From the IMG/VR virus record IMGVR_UViG_3300036985_002546, positions 7,812 to 71,811 of that record: a DNA stretch of 64,000 bases, one strand, 5' to 3'. The translations under genes and the position numbers were made by a program. The number at the start of each line of letters is the position of its first letter. Position 1 is the stretch's first letter. The notes beneath the pieces were generated by a model. It ran no database searches. It saw only the letters and a list, made by a program, of their open reading frames with translations, and was not told the DNA's origin. This DNA comes from a virus. Below are positions 1 through 19,721 of the stretch, piece by piece.

Positions 1-120
1 ACCAATAAGAGAACTTTTGATTTTAAACATTACAGCTTTCATGGTATCCGCTAGCGTAGCACCATATTGTGCTGAGTTAACGTTAAATTGCCATACTTTT
101 GATTTAGCTGGTGCAGGCAT
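1..120 (-). CDS. Type-B array paralog, N-terminal 40 aa (runs off window edge)
   Basis: Manual translation MPAPAKSKVWQFNVNSAQYGATLADTMKAVMFKIKSSLIG matches the N-termini of 1429..2430 and 7371..8366; RBS TAAGGA upstream. Confidence 0.9.
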   Translation of the reverse strand, partial: MPAPAKSKVWQFNVNSAQYGATLADTMKAVMFKIKSSLIG

Positions 121-129
121 GATTAATCC

Positions 130-1116
130 TTATAGCATGTTTGTAGAACCGTCCCAAGGCAAAATTAAGTCATTAGTATAAACCCATTCTTTTGAAGGTG
201 TAGAATCAAATTGGACACCACGCATCAATCCAGGATCCCCAAAGTACATATCATAAGTTTCTCCCCAGATACCTCGTAATGGTGGCAAATCACAAATATA
301 AACTATCGGCCAATACTCTCGTACTCCTGTTAAATCGTTTACTAATTGACCTGTACCTCTTTCAATTATTGAACTTGAAACTACAAATGGTGTAGCCATG
401 TACAATAAACCGGAAGTTAATGACGAACTTGGTTTAAAATTTAACCTTGCTGTATCGTTCCAATCTTGTACCCGCGCTCCAGAAGTTGTGGTAGATGATG
501 AAGCTCTAAAACCCATAACCCAAGGAGTTGTCCAACCAGATATTGCGTTCTTTGGTTTATCAGCAATTAAAACAGTAACTGGATAGAGATTGTTGGTAAC
601 CAGTACACGAGTACAAGCACCATCAGTACTTTGCATGCAGTGTACGCGGTATAATTGGGTAGAGGATAAATTGTCACCCCACACGGTATTACTTAGAACC
701 ACGATCTCATCTGTAGCTGTAGGTCTAGCAGAAGTACTACCATTGGTACCTCCGTTGGCAGTACCAAATCCATTAGCTGGTGATAGTACAATAGTCATGT
801 TTACAGATGATGCATTACTTAAATCAAAGCATAGCTCAAATTTAGTAGCTAACCCTGTTTGACGTAAAACAATCCACGAATGAGCACCGGTTCCCCACAC
901 TAAATTTGTGGAAGTGCTCCAACGGTCTGTACCATCCATACTAGATGCAGAGCTATTGGAACTACCAGAAACCGTCCACGGTAGTGTGCTAAATCCTATT
1001 AAAGATGTTTTAATTTGCAGCATAGTTTGCTGCGTATCAGCTAAAACAGTACCACTAGCTCCTTTAGTATTGTTTACTGAATATTGCCATGTTTTATCTT
1101 TTGTAGGAAGTGCCAT
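130..1116 (-). CDS. Type-A array paralog (328 aa), putative virion appendage/receptor-binding protein
   Basis: Shared core SGSS..S.MDG.DRW / AHSWIVLRQ / SP.NGFGT.NGGT.GST.ARPTATDE; closest to 8376..9362; lies downstream of tail fibre genes. Confidence 0.75.
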   Translation of the reverse strand: MALPTKDKTWQYSVNNTKGASGTVLADTQQTMLQIKTSLIGFSTLPWTVSGSSNSSASSMDGTDRWSTSTNLVWGTGAHSWIVLRQTGLATKFELCFDLSNASSVNMTIVLSPANGFGTANGGTNGSTSARPTATDEIVVLSNTVWGDNLSSTQLYRVHCMQSTDGACTRVLVTNNLYPVTVLIADKPKNAISGWTTPWVMGFRASSSTTTSGARVQDWNDTARLNFKPSSSLTSGLLYMATPFVVSSSIIERGTGQLVNDLTGVREYWPIVYICDLPPLRGIWGETYDMYFGDPGLMRGVQFDSTPSKEWVYTNDLILPWDGSTNML

Positions 1117-1137
1117 AAGTACTCCAATTAAACTTTG

Positions 1138-1422
1138 TTAGCTAATCCGTTTTGATACAATTACGTTCGATAGTGATCCTGGTCCTGTGTAAATTAGACC
1201 TGTGTAATCAACAAATGATGCAGTCCAGTAAACTGTAGTAGATAAAGTATTATCAAAACCTCTCATACGATATATACGTTTACCTGTTGCACCAGCTGTT
1301 GATCCGCTTAATGCTCCTGTGGTTTCTTTCTCAGAAACACTTGTATAGCTACTACTAGAACCGCTTACAACAGCTCCACTTGTGTTTATCTGACCAGCTA
1401 ACAATTCAACAGCTATAGACAT
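1138..1422 (-). CDS. Type-C small array paralog (94 aa)
   Basis: YRMRG(F/Y)D.TL...VYW...YTGPG.L.N motif shared with 3454..3741 and 7071..7367. Confidence 0.8.
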   Translation of the reverse strand: MSIAVELLAGQINTSGAVVSGSSSSYTSVSEKETTGALSGSTAGATGKRIYRMRGFDNTLSTTVYWTASFVDYTGLIYTGPGSLSNVIVSKRIS

Positions 1423-1428
1423 TGTTCT

Positions 1429-2430
1429 TTATCCCATTCGTTTGATACTCGAACCGTCCCACGGAACTATAAGTGTTCCAAACTGTGCCCAAGACAGTGC
1501 TGAACCCGACATATAATAATCCATTGGAATCGTATTACTGTTAGCGTTAGTACCCCAATATAGATCATAAGCTGTACCAAATAAACCTAAGACGCTTGTA
1601 CTCGTACTTGCGAGTGTGATAGCAAAGAATGGCCATTCACCGCTTAAATCATGTGAAACTAGACCACCTGCGTGTTTTCCGAAAACAGAAGACACACAAC
1701 CTGGTGTAGCAAAATAGAATAAACCAGCTGTTGTGCTGTGCTTAAAGTTTACGTTAGCGTTTGTATTGTTATAATACGTATAATCTAACTGAGTTGCGGT
1801 AGAGTTTCCAATACCTTTAACCGAAAAATAAGCTTTTGTTCCTGTCCAACCAGACAATGCATTATTTGCATAATCAAACATGAACAACGACACCGGATAC
1901 CCGTTAGCGCAGATAATTACTCGTGTACACTTACCATCTGTGCTTTGCATACAATGTACTATACATGGCGTGTTATTTGCAGATCCAGTAATCCAATCTC
2001 CACCGTTCAGTATAACCATTTCATCTGTGGCCGTAGGTCTAGCAGCCGTACTCCCATCAGTACCACCATTTACAGTACCAAAGCCGTTCACGGGAGAAAC
2101 AACGACTGTAAGTAAATGTGTGTTGACGTTAGCACAGTCAAAACAAATTTCACATTTTGCAGCTAACCCTGTTTGACGTAAGACTATCCAAGAGTGTGGG
2201 TTTCCCGCACTGTTCCATTGCAGGTTAGTGGATGTCCATCTATCTGTTCCGTCCATACCAGAGGCAGAACTGTTAGAACTTCCAGACACTGTCCACGGAG
2301 TAGACCCAAATCCCTTTAGTTTATCCTTAATATAATTGAGTATTCGTATACGTGAAGTATCGTAGTTTGCTCCACGCTGGAGTGAGTTAAGATTAAACTG
2401 CCAAGTTTTTACTTTAGATGGTGCTGGCAT
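1429..2430 (-). CDS. Type-B array paralog (333 aa)
   Basis: Shared core plus B-type features EWPF, YDLYWG, WAQFG..I.PW.G; shares GWTGTKA with 7371..8366. Confidence 0.75.
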   Translation of the reverse strand: MPAPSKVKTWQFNLNSLQRGANYDTSRIRILNYIKDKLKGFGSTPWTVSGSSNSSASGMDGTDRWTSTNLQWNSAGNPHSWIVLRQTGLAAKCEICFDCANVNTHLLTVVVSPVNGFGTVNGGTDGSTAARPTATDEMVILNGGDWITGSANNTPCIVHCMQSTDGKCTRVIICANGYPVSLFMFDYANNALSGWTGTKAYFSVKGIGNSTATQLDYTYYNNTNANVNFKHSTTAGLFYFATPGCVSSVFGKHAGGLVSHDLSGEWPFFAITLASTSTSVLGLFGTAYDLYWGTNANSNTIPMDYYMSGSALSWAQFGTLIVPWDGSSIKRMG

Positions 2431-2454
2431 TGTGTTTACTCATATTATAACGGA

Positions 2455-3450
2455 CTACCACCAAATCGTTGAATTAATATATGTCCAAAAGTCTTTTACA
2501 TATGTCCATTTAGTATTATCTGTAGCAGTTGTAGGTAAGGTTATACCAGGATCACCAAAATATAAATCATGTAATTCTCCCCAAACACCACGTGTTCCGA
2601 CAGTATTGCTTATTAAAGTAATAGGATTAAAAGCTCTATTGGATGAGACTGAATTTGCGTTTTGTCCAGCAGTAGTTTCCATCCAAGTAGTGGTATTAAC
2701 AAATGCTGCACCCATAAATAAGTTACCTATAGGTGAAGTCGTTGTTGGTTGAAAATATAACAATGCTGTATCGTTCCAATCTAAGATTCTAGCTGACGAT
2801 GTAGAAGTTCCACCAGAACCTTTAATACCTGCGATCCATGGAGTAGTCCAACTTGATAGTGGATTTTTAGGTACAGCAAAAATAACAGTTGTAACCGGGT
2901 AGTTGTTAGTAATTACGTGCGTATGTGTACAAGTACCATCAGTACTTAGTGAAACACACACTTTATAACCATATGTGCTAAACGTACCAGGGTTATCATT
3001 CCATACAACGTTATTATGAATGATTATTTCGTCAGTAGCTGTCGGTCTAGCAGATGTACTACCGTCAGTACCCCCGTTAACTGTCCCAAATCCGTTATTT
3101 GGAGACACAACAACAGTCATAATACTGCTGTTAGAGTTACTTAAATCAAAACATACCTCAAACTTTGTCGCTATGGTGGGTTGACGTAGTACAATCCACG
3201 AATGAGCACCAGTACCCCAAATTAAATCTACGTAATTGGGCCATCTGTCTGTACTATCCATACCTGACGCAGAACTACTTGAACTACCAGATACCGTCCA
3301 TGGATTTGTTGGGGAGGTTTCTTGCCCACGAAAAGCACGTTTGACAAGCCACAATATCGCTTGGTTATCTGTAAGTTTGCTGCCATTAGGACCTATTTGA
3401 CCTTGGTTGGCTACACTTTGCCAAGTTTTTGTTGTAGATGGTGATGCCAT
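2455..3450 (-). CDS. Type-A array paralog (331 aa)
   Basis: Shared core plus A-type features PW.AG, AR..DW, GVWGE..DLYFG. Confidence 0.75.
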   Translation of the reverse strand: MASPSTTKTWQSVANQGQIGPNGSKLTDNQAILWLVKRAFRGQETSPTNPWTVSGSSSSSASGMDSTDRWPNYVDLIWGTGAHSWIVLRQPTIATKFEVCFDLSNSNSSIMTVVVSPNNGFGTVNGGTDGSTSARPTATDEIIIHNNVVWNDNPGTFSTYGYKVCVSLSTDGTCTHTHVITNNYPVTTVIFAVPKNPLSSWTTPWIAGIKGSGGTSTSSARILDWNDTALLYFQPTTTSPIGNLFMGAAFVNTTTWMETTAGQNANSVSSNRAFNPITLISNTVGTRGVWGELHDLYFGDPGITLPTTATDNTKWTYVKDFWTYINSTIWW

Positions 3451-3453
3451 GTA

Positions 3454-3741
3454 TTAACTCAGTATGTGTACAATTGTTATATTTGTTAATGGTCCTGGTC
3501 CTGTGTATTGCGCACCAGTACTATCTACTGACGTGGCTGTCCAGTATACCGTTGTAGTAAGTGTAGTATCATAACCACGCATTCTATAGTTATTTGTAGG
3601 TGTTACTAACGCTGTACCACTAAATGCTGCTGTGATTTTATTGTTGGGTTGAGGTAGTAATTCACCCGATACTCCTGCCAAAGCAGTAAGTGAAGTAGTC
3701 AGTTGACCTGCAACAATGTTATCAATAGCAAATGTCGCCAT
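3454..3741 (-). CDS. Type-C small array paralog (95 aa)
   Basis: YRMRGYDTTL...VYW...QYTGPGPL.NI. Confidence 0.8.
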   Translation of the reverse strand: MATFAIDNIVAGQLTTSLTALAGVSGELLPQPNNKITAAFSGTALVTPTNNYRMRGYDTTLTTTVYWTATSVDSTGAQYTGPGPLTNITIVHILS

Positions 3742-3744
3742 GTG

Positions 3745-4716
3745 TTAACCTAGTTTCTTTAGCGAAGATCCATCCCACGGAAGAATAAGGTCACCAAATT
3801 GTGTCCACGTGTATCCAGGATAGTCTACTTTACCCTGGAAGTTCTCACTACCCCAGTATAAATCATATGGAGTACCAAAGATCCCGCATCCATTAGTTCC
3901 GTTCCCAGCTAGACTTATAGGCATAAACGGCCACTCATTAGTAAAACTTGCAGTTTTACTACCACCTGGATTACGCCCGTAGGGTGCTGACGAATAACCC
4001 AAAGTAGCTAACCACACAGGAATATAAAAGGAATTTGCTTTTACAATTAAGTTTGCATTTTCGTTAAGTGTGGGGTAAGAAACAGCATTTCCAAGTTGAG
4101 AATATACACCAAACAATAGCCTTGGTGTATTCCAACCAGTTATTGCATTCTTTGGTGTATCAAATACCAATATATTGATAGGATACCCGTTAGAACAAAC
4201 AATTACTCTAGTACACGTACCGTCAGTACTTTGCATACAGTGTACTACGTATGCTGGTGATGCGTCACTACCACCCCAAGATGTACCAGGAAGTGTGTAC
4301 GAGTCAGTTGCTGTAGGTCTAGCAGTAGTACTACCGTTGGTGCCTCCGTTTGCTGTACCAAAGCCGTTTACAGGAGAAATTAAAAAGGTAGCTGTGTATG
4401 AAGAACTAGCTGAGTTACAATCAATGCACACTTCAAATTTAGTATTTAGTCCTGTCTGACGTAAAACGATCCATGAATGAGCACTACCATCGTTGTTATG
4501 TAATATTTTTGTGTAGTCAGTCCATCTATCAGTTCCATCCATACCTGATGTAGCACCATCTGAAGATCCTGAAATTGTCCAAGGGTTAGTTCCGAATCCT
4601 TTTAATGCGTTTTTAATTTGTAATGCCATTAAGTTTAGTCTATAAACTGGCGTAGAATCATAACATATGGCGTTTACATTGAATTGCCAGGTTTTAGATC
4701 TTGATGGGACACTCAT
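3745..4716 (-). CDS. Type-B array paralog (323 aa)
   Basis: Shared core plus EWPF, GIFGTPYDLYWG, WTQFG.LILPWDG. Confidence 0.75.
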   Translation of the reverse strand: MSVPSRSKTWQFNVNAICYDSTPVYRLNLMALQIKNALKGFGTNPWTISGSSDGATSGMDGTDRWTDYTKILHNNDGSAHSWIVLRQTGLNTKFEVCIDCNSASSSYTATFLISPVNGFGTANGGTNGSTTARPTATDSYTLPGTSWGGSDASPAYVVHCMQSTDGTCTRVIVCSNGYPINILVFDTPKNAITGWNTPRLLFGVYSQLGNAVSYPTLNENANLIVKANSFYIPVWLATLGYSSAPYGRNPGGSKTASFTNEWPFMPISLAGNGTNGCGIFGTPYDLYWGSENFQGKVDYPGYTWTQFGDLILPWDGSSLKKLG

Positions 4717-4734
4717 GTTAATTAGACCTTTTAT

Positions 4735-5748
4735 TTACCGCCAAACTTGTGAGGGCATAACAAACATCATTAAGTCAATAAACATAAAGGACGAAGAATC
4801 TGTAGGTATATCTCCATGTCCTGCAAAATTGTCTGTAAAATATAAATCGTACACCTCACCCCACACACCATTTGTACCTGCTGTATCACTAATTAATGCA
4901 ATAGGATAAATAGTGTAGTTTCCGCTAATTTTATTTGAATTTGGACTTATACTATAGTAGGCGTCAAAGAGTCCTCTAGTTCCTGTAAATGTTGTAGCCA
5001 TAAACAACTTGCCTACAGGAGAGGTAGTTGTGGGTTTAAAAAATAGTTTATCGTACCTATTATAATGATTATACGTATCATACTGATTTTTTAGTACACC
5101 CGAACCAGGTGATAAGGATGATGTTATTCCTGCTATCCATGGATTTGTCCAAGAGGATATAGGATTCTGTGGTTTTTCAATAAAAAACGCCATTACAGCA
5201 CACGTGGCATATGTGTACGATGTAGTTAGGAATATACGCACACAATCCAAGGTATCAGTACACACAGCGTTAATATAATAGCCAGATGTATTATAAAAAC
5301 TACCGATATTATCAGCCCAAGTAGCATTATTTACCACTACAATTTCATCTGTAGCTGTAGGTCTAGCAGAAGTACTTCCATCGGTACCACCATTTGCAGT
5401 ACCAAAACCGTTATTAGGTGAAATTACTATTGTAATAGTACTACAGGTAGTACTACTGACTAAATCAAAACATATCTCAAATTTACTTGTTATAGCTGTT
5501 TGACGTCGAACGATCCAGGAATGTGCTCCGGTACCCCACACTAAATTAGTGTAAGTAGACCAACGATTGCTTCCGTCCATACCTGACGTAGAGCTGTTAG
5601 AACTACCAGAGCACGTCCACCCGCTGTCTGATAACGCACTACTAATCTCAAAGATTACTTTTTGACCATTACTTAGCGCATCAGTACCTTTAATATTATT
5701 GGTAGTACCTCTACGGATCCAATTTTTACTTAACGATGGTGATGCCAT
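4735..5748 (-). CDS. Type-A array paralog (337 aa)
   Basis: Shared core; NP.SSWT.PWIAGI and PTTTSP.G.LFM shared with 2455..3450. Confidence 0.75.
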   Translation of the reverse strand: MASPSLSKNWIRRGTTNNIKGTDALSNGQKVIFEISSALSDSGWTCSGSSNSSTSGMDGSNRWSTYTNLVWGTGAHSWIVRRQTAITSKFEICFDLVSSTTCSTITIVISPNNGFGTANGGTDGSTSARPTATDEIVVVNNATWADNIGSFYNTSGYYINAVCTDTLDCVRIFLTTSYTYATCAVMAFFIEKPQNPISSWTNPWIAGITSSLSPGSGVLKNQYDTYNHYNRYDKLFFKPTTTSPVGKLFMATTFTGTRGLFDAYYSISPNSNKISGNYTIYPIALISDTAGTNGVWGEVYDLYFTDNFAGHGDIPTDSSSFMFIDLMMFVMPSQVWR

Positions 5749-5759
5749 AAAAAATTTTA

Positions 5760-5972
5760 TTAATCTATATAATTAGGAGTCAAGAATTGAAGACCATCTG
5801 CTGTTTGAGTGCCTATTAGCGTAATTTCATACACACTGCGATAGATCGCATCAGGTAAATTTATGTCACGCCATGCTTCAAATTTACTTTGAGCTTGTTC
5901 TGGGCTCTCTGCACGAACCATCGTGCAATTCATAGATAAATCACGAACCGAATAAATATTGTATGTTTCCAT
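5760..5972 (-). CDS. Type-E small protein (70 aa), unknown function
   Basis: Abuts the D gene; VRAE...A.SKFE.W...NLPDA..RSV shared with the uncalled frame at 9372..9572. Confidence 0.8.
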   Translation of the reverse strand: METYNIYSVRDLSMNCTMVRAESPEQAQSKFEAWRDINLPDAIYRSVYEITLIGTQTADGLQFLTPNYID

Positions 5973-6959
5973 TTAGTTCACCGTGTGTGTGATTTGTATG
6001 TAAGATCCACCCAATTCAACAGAATCAGCTGGATTTGATGGACTTGTAACCCAAACTTCTACTTGATACACTTTGGAAGACGTTTTTATATTTCCTGAAC
6101 TGCTTCCTATAGTAAGAGCTGCGTCAGAGAATGCTGGTGTAGTGCTTGTAAATGTTAACGTAGCTACAGTTTCTGAATCTGTTACATTAGTCAATCTAAC
6201 GTTACCTGTAGCCGTGTACCCGATAGCAGCTACAGCTCTAAACCTCATAGTTTTGGTAGTTCCAGTGATGCTATAATCAGATGGATTCAGTTCAAATTGG
6301 TGTACGATAAGGTGTGTATCACTGTTGTACGACGTACTAGATCCACACGACAATGGAATAGTTACCTTGTCACCTGTTGCACCAATTCCACCGCTAGCGG
6401 TGGAAGCTATAGTTAAAGTTTCATCAGCACCAGCACTACCTTTAGTTAAGGTAACGTTAGTACCAGCTACTAGTTTTCCTAAAAGATATCCAGGAGTTGT
6501 GTCTCCAGACGAGACAGTAGATTTTGCTTTAGCTGAATTTAACGTTCCGAGAGTAGAATCTGATTGACGCATAAACATCGTCATATCAGGTTGCCACCCC
6601 TTAATATTTCCACCTGCGTTATACTCCAGTTTTTCATCATATCCTGGAATACGTGCGCCAGTAGTTGCTAATGGCACAGCTATAACAACTACGGAGGTGT
6701 CAGAACCGTTTACTATACATCTTACACGGTATGAACCAGTGTGTGATGGTGAGAAGGTTGCTGTTGGTGTTGATGCACCGCTTAAAGATGATGTTGAACC
6801 AGTAGGAATATCTACTAAAGTCCATGCATACGCTGCACCACTGTTACCAGGTTCAGTGTCTGTTAAAGTAATAGTTTCATAGAGCACTAAGTCATTACGG
6901 CCTACACCAGTTACATCACCGGACGTACTGCCGCTACTTTTAATTATCGGTGTCGCCAT
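5973..6959 (-). CDS. Type-D protein: N-terminal PKD/Ig-like domain, fibre-like linker, C-terminal beta domain
   Basis: Y.WT..D.P..S...LSGASTPTATFSP..TGSYRV is a PKD-like signature; one DTT.GYL.GKL unit; paralog of 10765..11880. Confidence 0.7.
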   Translation of the reverse strand: MATPIIKSSGSTSGDVTGVGRNDLVLYETITLTDTEPGNSGAAYAWTLVDIPTGSTSSLSGASTPTATFSPSHTGSYRVRCIVNGSDTSVVVIAVPLATTGARIPGYDEKLEYNAGGNIKGWQPDMTMFMRQSDSTLGTLNSAKAKSTVSSGDTTPGYLLGKLVAGTNVTLTKGSAGADETLTIASTASGGIGATGDKVTIPLSCGSSTSYNSDTHLIVHQFELNPSDYSITGTTKTMRFRAVAAIGYTATGNVRLTNVTDSETVATLTFTSTTPAFSDAALTIGSSSGNIKTSSKVYQVEVWVTSPSNPADSVELGGSYIQITHTVN

Positions 6960-7023
6960 GTGTATTTTATTTCCTGTTAGTTGGTTGTGGCGATTTCAAA
7001 GATACTTTGTAATATACTAGTAA

Positions 7024-7052
7024 ATAGTACACCAATCGTGTTTCTTAGTCTA
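7024..7052 (-). promoter_or_regulatory. Candidate sigma70-type promoter in front of the second D-E-(ABC)n module
   Basis: TAGACT-N17-TACTAT in the largest intergenic gap (6960..7070) between array genes. Confidence 0.4.
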
Positions 7053-7070
7053 GAAGTAGTTCAAAGATTT

Positions 7071-7367
7071 TCAATGACCTACAACGTTATACACCACTAT
7101 ATTTGATAGTGGTCCCGGTCCTGTATACTGACTGCCTGCTGTGTCAATTGTTACAGCTAGCCAGTATACATTGTACCCCAAGGTAGTATCATATCCTCTC
7201 ATTCTATACACCAGCGAACCTCCTGACCCTATGGTAGAGCCGCTTATAGCTGCTGATGATGTAGAAGATACTTGTCCGGACATAAAATCACCACCAGCAC
7301 CATCTTGCACGCCACCAAATGTTGCGTCTATTTGGTTTGATACATAGTCACCATTAACATCGGCCAT
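7071..7367 (-). CDS. Type-C small array paralog (98 aa)
   Basis: YRMRGYDTTL...VYW...QYTGPGPLSNI. Confidence 0.8.
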   Translation of the reverse strand: MADVNGDYVSNQIDATFGGVQDGAGGDFMSGQVSSTSSAAISGSTIGSGGSLVYRMRGYDTTLGYNVYWLAVTIDTAGSQYTGPGPLSNIVVYNVVGH

Positions 7368-7370
7368 AGA

Positions 7371-8366
7371 TTATCCTATTCGCTGTGCAGCAGTACCATT
7401 CCATGGAAAAATCATGTTACCAAACTGTGCCCATGAAAATGGCACAGATGATAAGTCATAACTCACCATAGAGTTGGGTGTTGTAGAACCCCAATACAGG
7501 TCATACACTGTACCCCATTGTCCTCTAAGTGTGGAAGTTTCGCACCACAGCCCCATAGGACAAAAAGGCCATTCTTTTGTTATATCTTGCACAATGATCC
7601 CACCAGGCTGTCTTGGAAATGCTGAAGATCCATATCCTGGTGTTGAGAGGTAGAAGTTGCCGTTTGTGGTATTGTGTTTAAAAAACAATGTACTACTTGC
7701 GTCATTATAATTACCAAAAGTTAGTTGATTAGAAGCAGAACCTACACCCCAAAAACCATAAAAAGCCTTGGTTCCTGTCCATCCAGACAACCCATTATTT
7801 ACTGCATCAAAAATCATTAATGTACAAGGTACACCGCTAACACAAATAACAGCACGTGTACAAGCTCCATCAGAACTCTGCATTACGTGTACAGCTAGTG
7901 TTATGTTAGTAGCTCCGTTAACCCACCCATTTGCGTTAGATGTTGCTAGTACAGTTACCTCATCAGTAGCTGTAGGTCTAGCAGAAGTACTACCGTTGGT
8001 TCCCCCGTTTGCTGTCCCAAATCCATTCACAGGAGAAACCACAACGTTCATAATTGAGTCGGTTGCTGAAGCTAGGTCGAAGCACACTTCAAATTTAGTG
8101 GCCACACCTGTTTGACGTAAAACAATCCATGAATGTGCACCTGAACCCCAAACTAAATTTGTATACGCACTCCATCTATCTGTACCGTCCATACTTGATG
8201 CTGAACTACTAGAACTTCCGGATACAGTCCAAGGTGTAGAACCGAATCCGATCATGGATGATTTTATTTGGTATAATACGTTTTGGTGTAGTATTAACGT
8301 ACTCGTACCTGTTTGTAGGGAGTTTACGTTAAATTGCCAAGTTTTGGTTTTAGTTGGTGCGGGCAT
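7371..8366 (-). CDS. Type-B array paralog (331 aa)
   Basis: Shared core plus B-type C-terminal motifs. Confidence 0.75.
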   Translation of the reverse strand: MPAPTKTKTWQFNVNSLQTGTSTLILHQNVLYQIKSSMIGFGSTPWTVSGSSSSSASSMDGTDRWSAYTNLVWGSGAHSWIVLRQTGVATKFEVCFDLASATDSIMNVVVSPVNGFGTANGGTNGSTSARPTATDEVTVLATSNANGWVNGATNITLAVHVMQSSDGACTRAVICVSGVPCTLMIFDAVNNGLSGWTGTKAFYGFWGVGSASNQLTFGNYNDASSTLFFKHNTTNGNFYLSTPGYGSSAFPRQPGGIIVQDITKEWPFCPMGLWCETSTLRGQWGTVYDLYWGSTTPNSMVSYDLSSVPFSWAQFGNMIFPWNGTAAQRIG

Positions 8367-8375
8367 AATTAGTCC

Positions 8376-9362
8376 TTACTGCATGGCATTGGCGCCATCC
8401 CATGGAAGAATCATATCACTGACAAATACCCATTCATGTGATGGAGATGAATCAAATCCTGTACCTCTAGCCACTCCTGTAGACCCAAAATAAAGATCAT
8501 ACATTTCACCCCACATACCCCTCATTCCAGTAGATTCACTAATAACTGTAATAGGGAAGAATGGCCAATTACCTGACACATCGTTGGCTACAGTTCCTGC
8601 GGTTCTAACAGCTAATGTTTGTGTCAATACCATAGGTATAGATAGATAAGCACTTCCAACGGTTAACGTTGTTTTTGGTTGTAGTTTCATATTAGCTGCG
8701 GTAATCCAATCAGCTATTCTTGCTCCACTGGTAGTTGCTGATGCTGATGCTTTAAATCCAACTAACCACGGAGCATCCCAACCTGTTACTGCATTTTTTG
8801 GTCGATCTATGATCCAAACAGAAACAGGGTATAGGTTATTTGTAACTAAAATTCGTGTACATTGTCCGTCTGTACTCTGCATACAATGTACTTTATACGA
8901 TTGCCCAGAACCTGGTGCGTCATTCCACGTGGTATTACTTAAAACTACATATTCATCTGTGGCTGTAGGTCTTGCGGTAGTGCTACCATCAGTACCACCG
9001 TTTGTGGTACCGAAACCATTTGCAGGAGAAATTACAATTGTTGCTGAGTTAGAACTTGCGTTGGCTAGGTCTATACATAATTCAAATTTAGTTGCCATTC
9101 CGGTTTGACGCATGACAATCCAGGAATGAGCACCAGAGGCCCACACTAGATTTGTATCAGCAGCCCAACGGTTACTTCCGTCCATACCAGAAGCAGAACT
9201 GTCTGAAGAGCCAGAACAGGTCCACGGTTGTGTGCCGAAGGCAGTTAAAGCAACAGGAATCTGACGCATGGCTGCCCTGTTGTCTGTAAGTAAAGTACCG
9301 GAACCGCCTTTAGCTATATTTATTGTGTGTTGCCAAGTTTTTGATTTTGTTGGTAAACCCAT
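8376..9362 (-). CDS. Type-A array paralog (328 aa)
   Basis: Shared core; same length and similar termini as 130..1116; RBS AAGGAG. Confidence 0.75.
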   Translation of the reverse strand: MGLPTKSKTWQHTINIAKGGSGTLLTDNRAAMRQIPVALTAFGTQPWTCSGSSDSSASGMDGSNRWAADTNLVWASGAHSWIVMRQTGMATKFELCIDLANASSNSATIVISPANGFGTTNGGTDGSTTARPTATDEYVVLSNTTWNDAPGSGQSYKVHCMQSTDGQCTRILVTNNLYPVSVWIIDRPKNAVTGWDAPWLVGFKASASATTSGARIADWITAANMKLQPKTTLTVGSAYLSIPMVLTQTLAVRTAGTVANDVSGNWPFFPITVISESTGMRGMWGEMYDLYFGSTGVARGTGFDSSPSHEWVFVSDMILPWDGANAMQ

Positions 9363-9371
9363 TGACTCTCC

Positions 9372-9572
9372 TTAATCTAAGTAGACAGGTGTAATTAGCA
9401 TTTTCTCGCTACTTGGGGGTCCTACTAACCTAACATAATCAACAGATCGACAATCAGCGTCTGGTAAGTTGGCTAGGCACCATTCTTCAAATTTACTCTT
9501 GGCACCTTCTTCGGTCTCCGCTCTAACAAATGTTAGATGTCTTGAGTTGTCAAATACTTCGTATAAATTCGT
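9372..9572 (-). pseudogene. Type-E paralog separated from its ATG by the TnpB insertion; frame intact (66 codons), now beginning with ACG
   Basis: Manual translation (T)NLYEVFDNSRHLTFVRAETEEGAKSKFEEWCLANLPDADCRSVDYVRLVGPPSSEKMLITPVYLD* aligns with 5760..5972; the matching start ATG AAT TTA TA lies at 10763..10753. Confidence 0.75.
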
Positions 9573-10766
9573 GTTTCTACCCTTCTTCCTTATTTATTGT
9601 TGAGTATTTCTTCTGCAAGAGGCAGAACACTCTGCCCAAGTTTGAGTATATTCAAGGAAGAGTTTGTATCTCTGTCGTGTATTGTATTACAATTTGAACA
9701 TACCCATTCTCTTATTCCAAGACCTGCGATACCTTTCGGCCTCGACTCAGGTAGAGTACCACAAGTCGAACAGGTTTGGGTTGTAAATTTTTCGTTGACA
9801 ATTTTGAAATAAGCTTGATGCCTACTGGCTTTATACTCAAGCATAGTTCTAAACTTGTACCAACTTGAATTCATTACACTTTTAGCTAAGTGTGTCTTTG
9901 CAAGTTTGGTAGAGTTTACATTGCCTACGATTATTGTTTTGTTTTCTGCTGCTATTTTATGACTAGCTTTGTGTAAGAAATCCTTTCGTATATTTTTAAT
10001 TTTAGCGTGTATTGCTTTTACTCTTTTTTTATTGTGTGCTCTTTGTGCTACAGCTAATTTCTCTTCGTATTTGTAGTAAGTCTTTGGATTCTCTATCTTT
10101 TCTCCGGTAGACAAGGTAGCGAGTGTCTTTAATCCTAGGTCTATACCTACTTCACCTGTACCTGTAGGTAAATTAGGTACATCTACATACAAACATACAT
10201 ACCACTTACCTTGTGAATCCTCTACAAAACTACCTCCAGTAACTTTGTTTGGAATAGGTCTACGTTTAATTCCAAATAACTTAAAGATATTACCTAGATA
10301 GGATATAGAGTCTGTACCTACTTGTCTAGACTGTTCTTGGAAAGGAATCCAACCTAGAGATTTCTTGGATCCAAAACTAACTCTAAATTTAGGACATTTC
10401 TTGTGTTGATTTCTACTCTGTACAAATTGTTTGCATATACATTTAGATGTCTGTGCGTGTATTCCTAATTCTTTCGAGGTACCTTTTGTTAGAGATCCTA
10501 AATCAAAAAAACTAAGCCAATGTGTATTAGATCCTTGCTTATACAACAATTGTGTTTTCTTTTGTGTAGCTACACAAAAATTCCACACCTGATTTACAGA
10601 AAAAGACATACGTGACAAGATATTAATCTTGTTTTTGTCCTTAATTCTATATTTATAAGTAAGAATCATAGTTATGACTAATATATTAAAACAGTATTAA
10701 TAACGCAGTGTTTACTATACCTTAATTTTCAAAATTTAAACTTACTAGAGCATATAAATTCATGTT
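9562..10766 (-). mobile_element. TnpB-only insertion bounded by a 14-bp imperfect direct repeat
   Basis: TATAAATTCGTGTT (9562..9575) versus TATAAATTCATGTT (10753..10766); no tnpA; interrupts the D-E junction that is intact at 5972/5973. Confidence 0.75.
9590..10669 (-). CDS. tnpB: TnpB RNA-guided endonuclease (IS200/IS605/IS607 family)
   Basis: N-terminal TYKYRI, GIDLGLK (RuvC-I), VNEKFTTQTCSTCG and CSNC zinc finger, HDRDTNS (RuvC-III); GGCAGA-GTGT-TCTGCC hairpin in the 3' end where the omega-RNA is expected. Confidence 0.95.
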   Translation of the reverse strand: MILTYKYRIKDKNKINILSRMSFSVNQVWNFCVATQKKTQLLYKQGSNTHWLSFFDLGSLTKGTSKELGIHAQTSKCICKQFVQSRNQHKKCPKFRVSFGSKKSLGWIPFQEQSRQVGTDSISYLGNIFKLFGIKRRPIPNKVTGGSFVEDSQGKWYVCLYVDVPNLPTGTGEVGIDLGLKTLATLSTGEKIENPKTYYKYEEKLAVAQRAHNKKRVKAIHAKIKNIRKDFLHKASHKIAAENKTIIVGNVNSTKLAKTHLAKSVMNSSWYKFRTMLEYKASRHQAYFKIVNEKFTTQTCSTCGTLPESRPKGIAGLGIREWVCSNCNTIHDRDTNSSLNILKLGQSVLPLAEEILNNK

Positions 10767-11880
10767 AATTTACCGTATTAATGATGCGTATTTCAGCAAC
10801 ACCCAACTCTATAGAATCTAAAGATGATGCTGGACTGTTGACCCATATGTGTACTTCATAGAATTTGGAGGAATTTTTTAAATTACCTGAACTACTTCCT
10901 ATTGTTAGAGTAGAACTTTGTATGCTTAGTGTTGTAGAGCTGAAAGTTAAAGTAGCTACCGTTTCTGAATCTGACACGTTTATTAATCTTACATTTCCGG
11001 TTATTCCACTGTTACCCATTAAACCTGTAGCCCTAAACACAGCTGACATAGTCGTGCCTGCCACAGTAAAATCACTTGGATTAACTTCTATCACACCGAC
11101 TATTAGGTGTGTATCTGAGTAATAACTTTTATTTATTCCGCATAAAATAGGATTAATTAATTTATTAGTCGACGCACCAATACCACCTGCTGTGGAAGCT
11201 ATAGTTAGTGTTTGATCTGTACCTGGAGTACTAGGTGTTAACGTTATATTAGTACCAGCTGCTAGCTTTCCGTAAAGATATCCTAGAGTTGTGTCACTGG
11301 ATGATACAGTTGCCAGACCATCAGAGGAAATTTTTATATTTTCGTTAAAACCTGCATTCTGTTTAGTTAACGTTACTCCATCACCCTCAACTAATTTATC
11401 CCAAAGAAATCCAGATGTTGTGTCATTTGTAGTAATTTTTACTTTATTAGTTCCTACAGTAACTGTAGACAATGCAGCGTCAGTTTGACGCATAAATAAC
11501 GTTTGATCTGTATGCCATCCTTTAGTATTACCATCACCATCATATTGCGTTAATTCGTTATACGCCGGAATCCTTGCGGTAGTATAACTTAATGCAACGG
11601 CAATGATTTCCTCAGACGAAGAAATTCCGTTTACTAAACAATTAACTCTGTAAGATCCCGTAACATCAGGAGAAAATGTCGCGGTAGGTGTTGATGCTCC
11701 TGATAATGAAGCGGTAGAAGTAACTGGAGTATCTAAGAACGTCCAAATGTAGGTAGCGCCTACATTGGCTGTTTCGGCATCTGTAAGTGTTACTGTTTCT
11801 CCAATAATAAGATCTTTTCTGCCGTGTCCAGTGATAGTACCAGAACTAGAACCAGTACTTCTTATTATCGGTGTAGCCAT
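10765..11880 (-). CDS. Type-D protein (371 aa): PKD/Ig-like domain plus two DTT.G.L..KL fibre units
   Basis: Paralog of 5973..6959; directly follows the tail fibre gene. Confidence 0.7.
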   Translation of the reverse strand: MATPIIRSTGSSSGTITGHGRKDLIIGETVTLTDAETANVGATYIWTFLDTPVTSTASLSGASTPTATFSPDVTGSYRVNCLVNGISSSEEIIAVALSYTTARIPAYNELTQYDGDGNTKGWHTDQTLFMRQTDAALSTVTVGTNKVKITTNDTTSGFLWDKLVEGDGVTLTKQNAGFNENIKISSDGLATVSSSDTTLGYLYGKLAAGTNITLTPSTPGTDQTLTIASTAGGIGASTNKLINPILCGINKSYYSDTHLIVGVIEVNPSDFTVAGTTMSAVFRATGLMGNSGITGNVRLINVSDSETVATLTFSSTTLSIQSSTLTIGSSSGNLKNSSKFYEVHIWVNSPASSLDSIELGVAEIRIINTVN

Positions 11881-11895
11881 GGAATTATCTCTAAA

Positions 11896-14800
11896 TTAGA
11901 TGTGTATGTGTGCTCTAAAGTTTAATCCGATATCCGAATATCCGGTAGGTGCCGCAAATGGATTTCCACCTTCTGTGTCTGTGGTAGCTTGTGTTCCAGA
12001 ATCTGCTAAAAATGTCCCGTTCCTTTCTATGGCAAATCCGTCTCCGCTAGTCCAAGTTGCACCACTAACCACAGAGCAGACATTGGCGTATATTATACTG
12101 TGTGATGAACCCCATGTAGTAGGTACTCTAATTCCGTGTGCATATACCCTGTTAGTAGATGCATCTGCACCCCAGTAGCACACGTTACCTATAATTGATC
12201 CTACGACGTACTCTGGACCGCTAGAAGAGGGTACCTGTGATGCATCAATACAACAAGCGTCAGAGTTAGTATAACCTTTATAGATTACTGTATTTCCATT
12301 TATGTTAAACCACTTTTTATTTACAATAATGCCTGCATTGCTAGCAGCATTACCACTGATTAATATAGAATTTCCTGTAATAAAGTTACTTATACCTGCA
12401 ACATTAATACCTTGGTGTGGTGCATCTATGAAATTACCTTTTACAGTTACTTGAGGAGTTAGGGCAATAGTCACACCTGTTACGGTTACAGCAACTGCGC
12501 TAGTATAACTTAATGATATGTTGTTATCATTAATTAGTGTTGACGATAACTCATCGGTAGCAAGAACGTTAACACCCGTTTTTCCTGTATTTATTAAATT
12601 TCCTAATATGGAACAGTTCGATATAGAACCTACTGTATTGATTATTGAAACTGCATTACAGTACGGGTTATTAGAATCAATACTGTTGTTTTTGATAGTA
12701 ATCATATCCACTAATGACGCAGCTGTTAATAAACCTATACCGTGTACTACAACACCATACGGTGACGTGATACCCTTGATTTGGTTATTACTTATAGTTA
12801 TGCTTGTGCTATTTGTATCTAAATTTAAGAGTAAACTACTGATCCCAGTAGCTGTTGCACTAGTGTTACCGATAGTATGTATTTGGTTGTTGTTTTCTGT
12901 GATATTTATTAGCTCTCCCGTCAAGAAAATACCACTACAAGTACTATTAGTAGTTCCTAAACCTGAAGTACCTAAATGATCTATTTGGTTGTTAGATACA
13001 CTAAGTTCATTACATGTATCTGCATAGATACCATAACAAGTAGAATCTACGCCACTAGAGGTTGGATTGATGTTAGTGATTAAATTGTTCGATATAGAAA
13101 CTCGCTCTACTTCTTGTAATTCAATTCCACATGCGTTAGTTGTACCCCATACAGTGTCTAATTGGTTGTTACTGATTATTGTATCAGTTACAGATGGAGC
13201 ACTTATAAGAGAAATGCCTTTTGAGTTAGCAGCAGAAGTTTTTAATGAGTTAATATTGTTGCTACTAATCTCAGTCTTTGTGCATGTACTTTCAATTAAA
13301 ATTCCAGTTAGATTAACACCGAGTGTTGTGGTGGCTCCTATAGAATTGTTTGTGATGTTTGTTTTGGATATATAACTGGATGAAGTTCCATAAATACTGT
13401 TTACACAGTCTGTTATCGTGTTGTTTGCTACAGTACAAGCAGTACTACCATCCAGAATAATACCTTGAGCAGTAGTACTGGATGCCCCAGCTTTACAGAT
13501 TATGGTATTTCCTAACACATCACAGTTTGTTGGTTCGTTGTATAAATAAATACCAGTAGATGTGCCGCCTAAATACACGATATTATTTTGTATTCTACAT
13601 GTATCGGCTTTAGGCATCAATAGGGCATTTACAAACGGAACACCACCACTAAACGGATAGATAAACGTACAGTCTTCAATAGAAATACTTTGGGCACCAC
13701 CTGTAGCATCGGTACTGTTGATATACACTGCATGGTCTATAGCAGTACCAGTACTTGTAGAGCCAAAAATACAATTTCTAAGAGATACGTTAGAAGCTAC
13801 TCCTGCTTTTACAATACAGTCTGATGCGCTTACACCTGTTGATTGTGTAAACTTTACGTTGTCAAATACACAGTCTATTAGTGCTGTAACGTTAATTGGT
13901 TGTGTAGTCGAACCAATTACAACCTGACTAAAAGTTGAACTAGTGTTAAGATTTCCGCCTATACCACCTAAATCACAGTTATATGCGTTTATTTTACCAG
14001 TTCCGATAAAACACGCTGTTAGCGTGCTATAAGATACAGGTGCCCACATTATATTTTCTATTGTTAAGGATGTGGTTCGCGTTAGAGTAGCGGAAGAATG
14101 TGCAGGATTTACAATTGTTCTATTGCGTGATTCACCAACGATATGAATTGGTACTGTTGCTGTTAAACCTGTAGTTAAACTGTAGGTACCGTCTTTTATG
14201 TAGAGCGTTCCTCCACCCCTTGTGTTTAGGTAAGCTACAGCGTTTGTAAACGCTGTATTAACAGATACTGCGTTGGTATTAAAATCACCGAATGTGTTAA
14301 CACCATCACCTATAGAAACAGATACGCTTCTAGACGGGATAACACCACTGGATGGTGAATAGTATCTATTATTAGTTGTAAATGGACCAAGAGGTGGTGC
14401 AGTGTTGCCTAGTGTGGTGTTTTGTGACGCACCAAATTTTAGCTCTCTAATCTGACTTGATAGGTGGTCAATATAGTTTTTAAGTGATTTAAGTTCAGTA
14501 TCTGTACGAGTGTCTCCTACATCATTAGGATCTAGTCCGAGTAAATAACCTGTATTTTCATCCCCTGAAAAGAAGTGTGTTCGTTGGTCTAGTGATCCAG
14601 TTCCCTGTGTAGTAAGAAATACTGAACCAGTAACAGAGCAGCGGCTACCAATTGGGTGTGTGTTGCCTGGTGAGGAACCTAGTGTTAGAATACCATTTTC
14701 CTGATCGTTAGTACTTATTGTGACTGTCTCTGCAAGTCCCGTGCCAGGAGAGAGAACTAATGAAAAAGAATCTACGGGTAATTCTCTGGAGTTGGTAACA

Positions 14801-19717: not shown

Positions 19718-19721
19718 CTAA

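What the first reader, a model, noticed from the sequence alone, without database searches (positions are those of the whole stretch)
1..11880. Modular paralog array D-E-(A-B-C)n downstream of the tail fibre: candidate combinatorial adsorption apparatus
Seen: eight homologous ~330-aa genes (one partial) strictly alternate between two subtypes, A then B. Each complete pair is followed by a ~95-aa C gene. A header of D (PKD/Ig-like fibre) plus E (66-70 aa) occurs twice. Transcription order is D,[TnpB],E,A,B,C, then D,E,A,B,C,A,B,C,A,B... and continues off the window. All frames are intact and tightly coupled, and copies are clearly diverged, so this is not a fresh duplication. Conserved blocks alternate with variable Trp/Tyr/Asn-rich segments, as expected of ligand-binding surfaces on a shared scaffold. 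I do not recognise the A/B or C families. Inference: each ABC triplet is a heteromeric tip docked on a D fibre, giving one virion several specificities.
Basis: partly seen in the sequence, partly recalled or inferred. Interest (0 to 1): 0.85.

Follow-up and report, generated by a model that had tools for sequence, protein, structure and literature searches.

The report
Paralog array for phage baseplate appendages
A phage from sediment metagenomes carries four tandem pairs of related genes, plus small partner genes and two lectin-tipped fibre genes, that most likely build the side appendages of its tail baseplate used to grip the host, and the same unnamed gene cassette occurs in many uncultured phages.

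Summary
Eight homologous ~330-aa genes on the minus strand alternate A,B,A,B. Three ~95-aa C genes follow pairs 1-3, and D (fibre) plus E occur twice. Corrections: the array ends just outside the window after the eighth copy, and pair 4 is followed by a 264-aa gene, not a C. E1 is split by a 1191-bp TnpB insertion that another sample lacks. Trp is enriched in conserved blocks, not variable ones.

A/B belong to a large unnamed phage family: 2732 representative clusters, no Pfam or PHROG model, and no cultured phage found with two queries. A confident model of A1 matches only JBD30 gp47 and gp48, adjacent paralogs that pair and stack into pilus-binding baseplate arms. The match is fold-level only and borderline.

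D ends in a TNF-like, lectin-like head. Genes ending in that head sit directly upstream of A/B genes in 26 loci, and small C-like ORFs follow A/B runs.

Best reading: A:B heterodimers, D fibres and C form baseplate-peripheral adsorption appendages, expanded here from one cassette to four pairs.

The parts
1..120 (-). B4, first 40 codons only. The full 336-aa gene is G000:C1:6921-7931 (= L009 6921-7931). It is the last A/B copy of the array.
130..1116 (-). A4 (328 aa), A subtype
1138..1422 (-). C3 (94 aa), small partner gene with a conserved C-terminal ~50 aa
1429..2430 (-). B3 (333 aa), B subtype
2455..3450 (-). A3 (331 aa), A subtype
3454..3741 (-). C2 (95 aa)
3745..4716 (-). B2 (323 aa), B subtype
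4735..5748 (-). A2 (337 aa), A subtype
5760..5972 (-). E2 (70 aa). Small gene directly after D2, found only in this phage among the loci searched. A role as D-specific assembly factor is inferred only.
5973..6959 (-). D2 (328 aa). Short fibre: N-terminal beta-sandwich, helix, one shaft repeat, C-terminal TNF-like jelly-roll head (residues ~198-328).
7071..7367 (-). C1 (98 aa)
7371..8366 (-). B1 (331 aa), B subtype
8376..9362 (-). A1 (328 aa), A subtype; the copy that was modelled (pLDDT 92.7)
9375..9575 (-). E1, downstream piece. Homologous to E2 (47% identity) but without an ATG/GTG/TTG start; ACG stands where the start would be.
9562..10752 (-). 1191-bp insertion carrying TnpB (ORF 9590-10669, 359 aa), bounded by a 14-nt near-identical direct repeat (9562-9575 and 10753-10766). 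A contig of run X2 lacks it.
10753..10763 (-). E1, upstream piece: start codon at 10763-10761 and the next few codons, one base after the D1 stop
10765..11880 (-). D1 (371 aa). Same architecture as D2, with a second copy of the ~43-aa shaft repeat.
11896..15414 (-). 1172-aa right-handed beta-helix protein (tailspike-like) immediately upstream of the array
17879..21563 (-). Two baseplate wedge/baseplate genes (612 and 613 aa) that set the context

Best explanation
The region encodes the outermost, host-contacting parts of the baseplate of a contractile-tailed phage.

A and B are two subtypes of a two-domain, mostly beta protein. I propose that one A and one B pair into a heterodimer (inferred). 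These heterodimers would be the building blocks of lateral baseplate appendages, like the gp47:gp48 heterodimers that stack into the pilus-gripping arms of Pseudomonas phage JBD30. The conserved N-terminal half would serve assembly and docking. The variable C-terminal half, which also tells A from B, would be exposed.

D is a short, probably trimeric fibre ending in a TNF-like, lectin-like head. Because a gene ending in that head sits next to A/B genes in many phages, I infer it belongs to the same appendage. C is a small cognate partner made together with each A:B pair, either a cap or adaptor, or an assembly factor (inferred; its role is the least certain). E may be a D-specific assembly factor (inferred).

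The ancestral unit is one cassette, D-A-B-C, as in the nearest relative. This phage has expanded it to D1-E1-A1-B1-C1 and D2-E2-A2-B2-C2-A3-B3-C3-A4-B4. One virion probably therefore carries at least two structurally different appendages.

Shown: gene order, homology, subtype split, synteny in other phages, fold resemblance and purifying selection. Inferred: heterodimer formation, virion location, receptor contact and the roles of C and E.
For: 1. Context. Tail sheath, hub-like and baseplate wedge genes lie directly upstream, followed by a beta-helix tailspike-like gene. In other phages A/B runs start immediately after a baseplate wedge gene (L022) or one gene after it (L031, L033).
2. Fold. 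The AlphaFold2 model of A1 has pLDDT 92.7 and pTM 0.91. In the PDB the two best Foldseek hits are 8rk3_K and 8rk3_G, with probability 0.99 and 0.97, TM 0.45-0.50 and near full-length alignment. The third hit has TM 0.07.
3. Identity of those chains. They are 317 and 305 residues long, matching JBD30 gp47 (318 aa) and gp48 (307 aa). The JBD30 paper states that each arm consists of three gp47:gp48 heterodimers, that the two folds are similar, and that the arms bind the type IV pilus (passages read).
4. Same genetic logic. gp47 and gp48 are adjacent paralogs, both in phrog_687 'structural protein'.
5. The pair behaves as a unit. The A/B split predates the divergence from L010. In an independent lineage (L031/L033/L044/L047) first-of-pair and second-of-pair copies also form separate clades.
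6. D has a TNF-like head. Best matches are the lectins PLTL and BC2L-C N-terminal domain (E 2e-5 to 6e-5, TM by target 0.44-0.52). D also shares a shaft repeat with proteins carrying T7 tail-fibre and collar Pfam domains.
7. Synteny. The D head domain always lies at the extreme C-terminus of proteins of 139-906 aa, and that gene ends right before an A/B gene in 26 loci. C-profile hits follow A/B in 20 of 76 loci with room. A 60-130-aa ORF follows 66 of 92 A/B run ends against 128 of 447 other genes of 200 aa or more (the loci are related, so the p-value is not clean).
8. Lectin fusions. Rare long forms fuse an A/B domain to ConA/LamG-like lectin domains.
9. The genes are maintained. Contigs from an independent study (X2) cover most of the array at ~99% identity. 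Listed differences are 14 synonymous to 1 nonsynonymous in A1 and 3 to 1 in B1.
Against: - The link to gp47/gp48 is by fold only. hhalign probability is below 1% for both, and phrog_687 does not hit A1, B1 or three other family members even at E<=10.
- Foldseek E-values (4.4e-3 and 1.1e-2) lie above the tool's 1e-3 mark and TM is only about 0.5. The second-look aligners were not available.
- JBD30 is a siphophage with a threefold baseplate. It has no D-head or C gene beside gp47/gp48.
- No family member was found in 50,697 cultured-phage records with two queries. No virion proteome or structure therefore exists for the family.
- Pairs are not universal. Many phages have 1 copy, and some have runs of 3 or 5 before the small ORF.
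- Heterodimer formation itself was not tested here.
Confidence: 0.55

Rival explanations
1. First reader's architecture. Each A-B-C triplet is a separate heteromeric receptor-binding tip that docks on the end of a D fibre, in the way T-even gp38 adhesins sit on the fibre tip (recalled knowledge). One virion then displays several specificities.
For: - A gene ending in the D head lies directly upstream of A/B in 26 loci.
- One protein (P0222) appears to join a weak D-head-like domain to an A/B domain (14.7 bits, E 7e-6 in a 9-sequence set).
- C was duplicated and diverged together with each pair.
- The C-terminal half of A/B is far more variable than the N-terminal half.
- Lectin-domain fusions exist.
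Against: - There are two D genes for four pairs, and pair 4 lacks C.
- D's conserved part is its own lectin-like head, while its N-terminal part varies in length between phages (139-906 aa).
- The only solved look-alikes of A/B are baseplate arms, not fibre tips.
- Listed strain-level differences are nearly all synonymous.
Confidence: 0.2
2. One serial arm with position-specific paralogs. The A/B copies of a cassette stack in a fixed order into a single appendage of defined length. The D gene comes first in the cassette's gene order and the C gene last. The number of genes sets the number of positions.
For: - JBD30 arms are stacks of three heterodimers.
- The second cassette here holds exactly three pairs after one D.
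- In other phages one D-head gene and one small ORF bracket runs of 1, 2, 3 or 4 A/B genes, and a run of 5 precedes a small ORF in L058.
- Near-complete jumbo phage records have a single copy, which would then have to self-stack.
Against: - C genes stand between the pairs of the second cassette, which fits separate units better.
- There is no direct evidence for any stacking order.
- Copies are only 41-59% identical within a subtype, so the interfaces may not be conserved.
Confidence: 0.15
3. A/B are not virion parts. They are assembly chaperones or enzymes (for example surface-glycan modifying or degrading) that act with the neighbouring fibres.
For: - Family-wide invariant or nearly invariant polar residues cluster in the N-terminal half: D61, D64, R65, W66, H79, S80, W81, R131-P-T-A-T-D-E137, Q162, S163, D165, C168, T169, R170.
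- The JBD30 authors themselves suggested a hydrolase role for gp47 (passage read).
Against: - No Pfam, PHROG or PDB sequence match to any enzyme.
- JBD30 gp47 gave no Pfam hit at E<=0.1 either.
- gp47/gp48 are resolved in the virion.
- Eight diverged copies fit structural diversification better than catalysis.
Confidence: 0.08

Closest known systems
Pseudomonas phage JBD30 gp47 and gp48, 'tail fibre forming proteins' (PDB 8rk3 chains K and G; phrog_687)
   Same: - About 310-330 aa.
- Adjacent paralogous genes in the tail/baseplate module.
- Best and only convincing fold match of the A1 model.
- In JBD30 they form heterodimers that stack into lateral arms binding the host's type IV pilus.
   Different: - No detectable sequence or profile similarity.
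- JBD30 is a siphophage with one pair, placed between the tape measure and distal tail protein genes.
- Here a myophage has four pairs downstream of the wedge and tailspike genes, each cassette with a lectin-headed fibre gene and small C genes that JBD30 lacks beside gp47/gp48.
Pseudomonas phage Lydia gp67/gp68 (Mesyanzhinovviridae), predicted JBD30-like two-protein fibres
   Same: Two adjacent proteins of similar fold, proposed to form heterodimer-based baseplate fibres (passages read).
   Different: A cultured siphophage with one pair, identified by similarity to JBD30. I did not compare its sequences with A/B.
Branched multi-tailspike complexes of Ackermannviridae phages
   Same: Several receptor-binding proteins encoded side by side and mounted together on one baseplate, which widens host recognition (abstract seen in the search listing).
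   Different: Those are beta-helix tailspikes joined through dedicated N-terminal adaptor domains. A/B have a different fold and no tailspike features. The comparison is functional only and was not tested.
TNF-like bacterial lectins (Photorhabdus PLTL; Burkholderia BC2L-C N-terminal domain) and the Chlamydia Pgp3 C-terminal domain
   Same: The C-terminal ~130 residues of D adopt the same jelly-roll fold (probability 1.0, E 2e-5 to 3e-4, TM by target about 0.5).
   Different: - 10-16% identity.
- No PDB sequence match.
- Trimer formation and sugar-binding residues were not examined.
- Here the domain is the end of a phage fibre.
IS200/IS605-family TnpB (IS1341-like, TnpB-only) elements
   Same: OrfB_IS605 and Cas12f1-like TNB domains score above the Pfam cut-offs. 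There is no TnpA ORF. The insertion is present or absent between samples.
   Different: It is bounded by a 14-nt near-identical direct repeat that contains the start codon of the gene it splits. By my recollection this is not typical of the family. Element ends and guide RNA were not analysed.

Membership tests
JBD30 gp47/gp48-type fibre-forming proteins (phrog_687) | Sequence membership in the family profile | tested here: not met
   phrog_687 hits gp47 (1.4e-101) and gp48 (5.5e-97), but not A1, B1 or three other family members at E<=10. hhalign of the A/B profile against gp47 and gp48 gives probability 0.2% and 0.5%.
JBD30 gp47/gp48-type fibre-forming proteins (phrog_687) | Same overall fold | tested here: inconclusive
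   Foldseek ranks 8rk3_K and 8rk3_G first: probability 0.99/0.97, TM 0.45-0.50, E 4.4e-3/1.1e-2, near full length; the next hit has TM 0.07. The E-values are above the tool's 1e-3 mark, and VIA-align was unavailable.
JBD30 gp47/gp48-type fibre-forming proteins (phrog_687) | Two adjacent paralogous genes in the tail/baseplate module | tested here: met
   A and B alternate, with 9-24-nt spacers. The A/B clades appear.
JBD30 gp47/gp48-type fibre-forming proteins (phrog_687) | The two proteins form a heterodimer that stacks into a baseplate arm | not tested
It needs multimer prediction scored on A against B, or co-purification.
JBD30 gp47/gp48-type fibre-forming proteins (phrog_687) | Present in the virion and contacting a host surface structure | not testable with these tools
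   No cultured phage with the family was found, and no proteomic data are at hand.
TNF-like (C1q/TNF jelly-roll) lectin head, for the D C-terminal domain | Jelly-roll fold matching TNF-like lectins | tested here: met
   The model has pLDDT 94-98 over residues 200-328. Foldseek finds PLTL 9ib9_B at E 2.2e-5 and BC2L-C 2wq4 at E 4.6e-5, with TM by target 0.44-0.52.
TNF-like (C1q/TNF jelly-roll) lectin head, for the D C-terminal domain | Trimeric assembly and a sugar-binding site at subunit interfaces | not tested
   Only a monomer was modelled, and no ligand residues were compared.
IS200/IS605-family TnpB element | TnpB protein domains (OrfB_IS605, zinc-ribbon/TNB) | tested here: met
   PF07282 scores 77.3 bits (cut-off 26.3) and PF01385 scores 65.3 bits (cut-off 30.5). 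phrog_506 transposase hits at 4.2e-71.
IS200/IS605-family TnpB element | Mobility (presence/absence polymorphism) | tested here: met
   A contig of run X2 joins 9561 to 10753 and skips 1191 bases, with 201 letters on the shorter side. X2 also has diverged TnpB copies joined to other places of the array.
   No Pfam family at E<=0.1 for D1 or D2. The model shows only a beta-sandwich at residues 1-95.

The most novel reading that the evidence does not exclude
The cassette [fibre ending in a TNF-like head] - [1 to 5 A/B genes] - [small C gene] would be a widespread, so far undescribed modular system for building baseplate appendages in uncultured (often jumbo) phages. In it, a homotypic stack of the JBD30 kind has repeatedly been turned, by tandem duplication, into a defined hetero-oligomer. 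Gene number would set the length or number of arms, and each extra pair would add a new binding surface. In this phage, one cassette with one pair and one cassette with exactly three pairs would give two different arms on one virion. That would be a multi-receptor adsorption device built on a fold unrelated to tailspikes.
Probability: 0.2. Interest if true: 0.7.

Novelty: new variant of a known kind. Interest (0 to 1): 0.55.

Why it matters
- **Family size.** The A/B family is large: 2732 representative clusters at E<=1e-3 in a library of 1.84 billion representatives. It has no Pfam or PHROG model and no cultured member found. A functional lead therefore annotates many 'hypothetical' genes in environmental and jumbo phage genomes.
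- **Generality of the JBD30 arm.** The fold link suggests that the two-protein heterodimer arm, so far described in Pseudomonas siphophages, is a much more general way of building host-contacting appendages, including on contractile tails.
- **Evolution of hetero-oligomers.** Copy number runs from 1 to 8 in tandem, and first/second subtypes arose more than once. This offers a natural series for studying how homo-oligomeric virion parts turn into hetero-oligomers, and how host range may be widened by cassette duplication.

Tried and rejected
**Searches and predictions that led nowhere**
- Complex prediction of A1 + B1 + C1, with C1 as the scored partner: no verdict (score 0.00; the partner's own fold was uncertain). 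It is not used as evidence either way. The A:B interface was not scored.
- VIA-align libraries pdb_via_wide and pdb_via: not on the machine.
- Sequence routes to a known family:
  - Pfam and PHROGs gave nothing for A, B, C, D or E.
  - PDB profile searches gave 0 hits at E<=1 for A/B and for D. For C they gave only nanobody and antibody chains at E 0.3-0.74 (chance).
  - ESM Atlas returned only unnamed viral clusters for A1 and nothing reliable for C1 (Atlas model pLDDT 0.37).
- Cultured phages: megablast of 1-12000, and tblastn with A1 and with P0079, found no match.
The allowed second scan with alignment A2 found 65 more distant loci.
- Rfam on 1-16000: no family.
- Promoter and terminator scans: fewer sites than in shuffles, and no minus-strand terminator in the array.
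- E homologs: none in the loci outside this phage.
- Expression: no RNA holder listed among the sequencing runs.
- Joints other than the 1191-bp skip and the TnpB-linked ones (for example 7822>8857 and 3871>7795) come from a contig of the B4 region matching paralogs with many mismatches. I read them as paralog cross-matches, not rearrangements.

**Ideas considered and rejected**
- A diversity-generating retroelement or other hypermutation. No reverse transcriptase was noticed among the ORFs examined, and strain differences are mostly synonymous. I did not search for one specifically.
- A fresh duplication or assembly artefact. Copies are only 30-59% identical.
- The nitrilase label for gp47. 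No Pfam hit at E<=0.1.

**Not seen.** Supplements of the JBD30 paper (Appendix Fig. S6, Table S3) are closed. They may show the gp47:gp48 interface in detail.

Full report
**1. What is in the sequence**

The window is bases 7812-71811 of a 71,811-bp linear virus record, estimated 42% complete. Every gene in the region lies on the minus strand.

In the order of transcription, a 1172-aa right-handed beta-helix protein comes first (11896-15414). It matches Pfam Beta_helix at 3.6e-5, below the cut-off, and the PHROG 'tail spike protein' at 4.2e-8. After it come:
- D1, TnpB, an E1 remnant, A1, B1, C1;
- D2, E2, A2, B2, C2;
- A3, B3, C3;
- A4 and the first 40 codons of B4.

Searching the whole record gives exactly eight A/B copies. 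The eighth, B4, is complete (336 aa) just outside the window. After B4 there is no C. Instead come a 264-aa ORF, two paralogous ORFs of 284 and 183 aa (32% identical), a sigma-region-4-like ORF and a helicase. The array therefore has four pairs and ends there. Spacers are 0-24 nt, except 111 nt between C1 and D2 (coordinates). The consensus scans found no minus-strand terminator in the array.

**2. Two subtypes**

Pairwise identity is 41-59% within A, 44-55% within B and 30-48% between them.

I built a quick tree of 72 family members. Left out were seven near-duplicate loci, two ORFs longer than 450 aa and the 40-aa fragment. The eight copies plus the two copies of the nearest relative, L010, form one clade (SH-aLRT 100), which splits into A (99) and B (87).

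A careful 20-row tree (8 + 2 + 10 outgroup rows that I chose from the nearest clades) gives B 95/87. A is one side of a branch in the best tree at 54/99.

The N-terminal half (A1 residues 1-190) is 48% identical on average and hardly separates the subtypes (46% between them). The C-terminal half is 26% identical overall and 22% between subtypes, and it holds most of the 15 subtype-discriminating columns. Trp sits in conserved columns, not variable ones.

**3. The family**

A/B, C, D and E hit no Pfam or PHROG family.

A1 has 299 relatives at E<=1e-3 in the word-indexed search, all 'hypothetical'. A profile finds 2732 representative clusters at E<=1e-3, of which 1253 are at <=1e-30.

None was found in 50,697 cultured-phage records with two tblastn queries. 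Among 185,579 species genomes only 5 MAG contigs matched.

The N-terminus itself (M1, P4, K8, W10) and a block around R131-P-T-A-T-D-E137 are invariant or nearly so across 52 diverse members.

**4. Fold of A/B**

The AlphaFold2 model of A1, built from a 52-row alignment, is confident: pLDDT 92.7, pTM 0.91.

Against the PDB, the only hits with a meaningful TM-score are chains K and G of 8rk3, the phage JBD30 baseplate. Their probability is 0.99 and 0.97, TM is 0.45-0.50, and the alignments span nearly the full length. The next hit has TM 0.07. The chain lengths (317 and 305) correspond to the adjacent JBD30 genes 47 (318 aa) and 48 (307 aa). Both belong to phrog_687, 'structural protein'.

In the passages of the JBD30 paper that I read (PMC11445458):
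- each of three lateral 'tail fibres resembling bent arms' is made of three gp47:gp48 heterodimers;
- the two proteins have similar folds;
- the arms embrace the type IV pilus.

A later paper predicts the same two-protein arrangement in phage Lydia (PMC11946847; passages read).

In the viral predicted-structure library the best matches are uncharacterised proteins of cultured phages (Bacillus phage G Gp371 and others). E ranges from 6e-6 to 3e-3 and TM from 0.38 to 0.53.

Caveats:
- There is no sequence or profile similarity to gp47/gp48.
- The Foldseek E-values are above the tool's 1e-3 mark.
- No second structural aligner was available.

**5. D, C and E**

The D2 model (pLDDT 85.3) shows four parts:
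- an N-terminal beta-sandwich (residues 1-95);
- a helix (125-142);
- a low-confidence shaft;
- a very confident C-terminal jelly-roll (198-328).

The jelly-roll matches TNF-like lectins (PLTL, the BC2L-C N-terminal domain) and the Pgp3 C-terminal domain. D1 differs from D2 mainly by a second ~43-aa shaft repeat. That repeat is shared with proteins carrying T7 tail-fibre and collar Pfam domains.

C has a variable Ser/Gly-rich N-terminal half after a conserved 'MA-D-x-D/N-G'-like start. Its C-terminal ~50 residues are conserved (Y-x-M-R ... W ... D ... G). Its fold could not be established.

E (E2 70 aa; E1 66 aa in the insertion-free form) was found only in this phage.

**6. The cassette recurs**

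I examined 108 related loci: 38 viral, 65 metagenomic and 5 from MAGs. After removing duplicates, 91 distinct loci had at least one A/B ORF of 250 aa or more. Tandem copy number is as follows:

| Copies per locus | 1 | 2 | 3 | 4 | 6 | 7 |
|---|---|---|---|---|---|---|
| Loci | 58 | 19 | 5 | 5 | 2 | 2 |

These are lower bounds, because many contigs are short. Whole records of 380 kb and 363 kb have a single copy, L010's 68-kb record has 2, and others have 4 and 7. The window's 8 is the largest seen.

A profile of the D head, iterated on the loci, finds 37 ORFs. The domain is always at the extreme C-terminus of proteins of 139-906 aa. In 26 loci that gene ends right before an A/B gene.

The C profile hits the ORF next to an A/B gene in 20 of 76 loci with at least 500 bp of room. 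A 60-130-aa ORF starts within -60 to +120 nt of 66 of 92 A/B run ends, against 128 of 447 other genes of 200 aa or more in the same loci. The loci are related, so this is descriptive.

Layouts such as 'AB AB c AB AB c' (L033, L095, L101), 'Dc AB AB AB C' (L054) and 'Dc o74 AB AB C' (L092) occur. Here Dc is a gene ending in the D head, c a small ORF the C profile does not detect, and o74 an unassigned 74-aa ORF.

In L031/L033/L044/L047 the first and second members of pairs again fall into separate clades. That is an independent case of the alternation.

A/B runs begin directly after a baseplate wedge gene in L022, and one gene after it in L031 and L033.

Rare long forms join an A/B domain to ConA/LamG-type lectin domains. 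One protein, P0222, appears to join a weak D-head-like domain to an A/B domain.

**7. Population data**

Contigs of three further runs from other studies hold parts of the array. X2 covers most of it at about 99% identity.

Only 40 of 228 differences were listed. Among those, A1 has 14 synonymous and 1 nonsynonymous, B1 has 3 and 1, B2 has 1 and 0, and D2 has 1 and 0. The genes are therefore under purifying selection at this time scale.

**8. The insertion**

TnpB (359 aa; Pfam OrfB_IS605 and Cas12f1-like TNB above their cut-offs) lies in a 1191-bp segment. That segment is bounded by a 14-nt direct repeat matching at 13 of 14 positions.

The upstream repeat copy contains an ATG one base after the D1 stop. 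The downstream copy has ACG at that place and continues into the E1 reading frame. E1 is thus split a few codons after its start.

A contig of X2 joins 9561 to 10753, skipping exactly these 1191 bases. The insertion-free form with D1 directly followed by an uninterrupted E1 therefore exists in another sample.

X2 also shows diverged TnpB copies joined to 9361 and to 1403. TnpB depth there is higher than in the flanks: 15-21 in the two bins from 9592 to 10425, against about 4-8 in the neighbouring bins. This suggests further insertion sites in or near the array. The record itself has one TnpB copy.

**9. Interpretation**

The best-supported reading is a baseplate-peripheral adsorption apparatus. 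Its core building block is an A:B heterodimer of the JBD30 gp47:gp48 kind, accompanied by a lectin-headed fibre (D) and a small cognate partner (C). It has been expanded here from one cassette to four pairs.

Three points remain open:
- whether the pairs stack in one arm or form separate appendages;
- whether D carries A/B or merely sits beside them;
- what C does.

The specific architecture of a triplet tip on a D fibre, and the claim of several specificities, are not shown.

I rate it a new variant of a known kind. The two-protein heterodimer arm is known from JBD30 (2024) and predicted for Lydia. The family, its D-A/B-C cassette, its spread in uncultured phages and its tandem expansion are not described in the papers I could find.

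Noticed in passing
window 9562-10752 (TnpB ORF 9590-10669); repeats 9562-9575 and 10753-10766: A TnpB-only insertion splits the small gene E1 a few codons after its start. It is bounded by a 14-nt direct repeat (13 of 14 identical) in which the upstream copy carries E1's ATG and the downstream copy has ACG. A contig from another study (run X2) has the insertion-free junction.
   Followed up: yes
window ~9361 and ~1403 (joints in run X2): In X2, diverged copies of the TnpB gene (about 88-90% identical over the aligned pieces) are joined to other places of the array: next to the A1 start and next to the C3 start. TnpB depth there is about 2-3 times that of the flanks. The element seems to move within intergenic sites of this array.
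   Followed up: partly
L009 4707-6900 (G000:C1, just outside the window): After the last A/B gene come a 264-aa ORF and two paralogous ORFs of 284 and 183 aa (32% identical over ~140 aa). None has a reliable Pfam or PHROG family: only the 264-aa ORF has a weak short hit, to an unknown-function PHROG (E 0.0036). They probably still belong to the structural module.
   Followed up: partly
L009 1-1011 (record end): A 337-aa open-ended ORF hits PHROGs annotated as head decoration, virion structural protein and tail fibre (best 3e-15). It is separated from the array by a helicase and regulator-like genes.
   Followed up: no
A/B proteins, e.g. window 8376-9362 (A1 residues 1-10 and 126-137): Across 52 diverse family members the very N-terminus (M1, P4, K8, T9, W10, Q11) and the block G126...R131-P-T-A-T-D-E137 are invariant or nearly so. 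That is unusually strict for a phage surface protein. It points to a conserved docking strand or a ligand or metal site.
   Followed up: no
L046 13703-15883; proteins P0348, P0349, P0351: Rare long family members fuse the A/B domain to ConA/LamG-like lectin domains (Pfam Laminin_G_3 at 8.9e-13 in L046).
   Followed up: partly
L020 9647-9991 and 10988-11293: In one single-copy phage, C-like small genes flank the A/B gene on both sides.
   Followed up: no
L092 (gene order Dc281 - o74 - AB596 - AB334 - C120): Another phage has a small 74-aa ORF between the D-head gene and the first A/B gene, in the position that E holds here. Homology to E was not detected or examined further.
   Followed up: no
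window 15415-17871 and 44397-47519: Two large ORFs (818 and 1040 aa) have no PHROG match. The 818-aa one also has no Pfam match and lies between the baseplate wedge genes and the tailspike-like gene.
   Followed up: no
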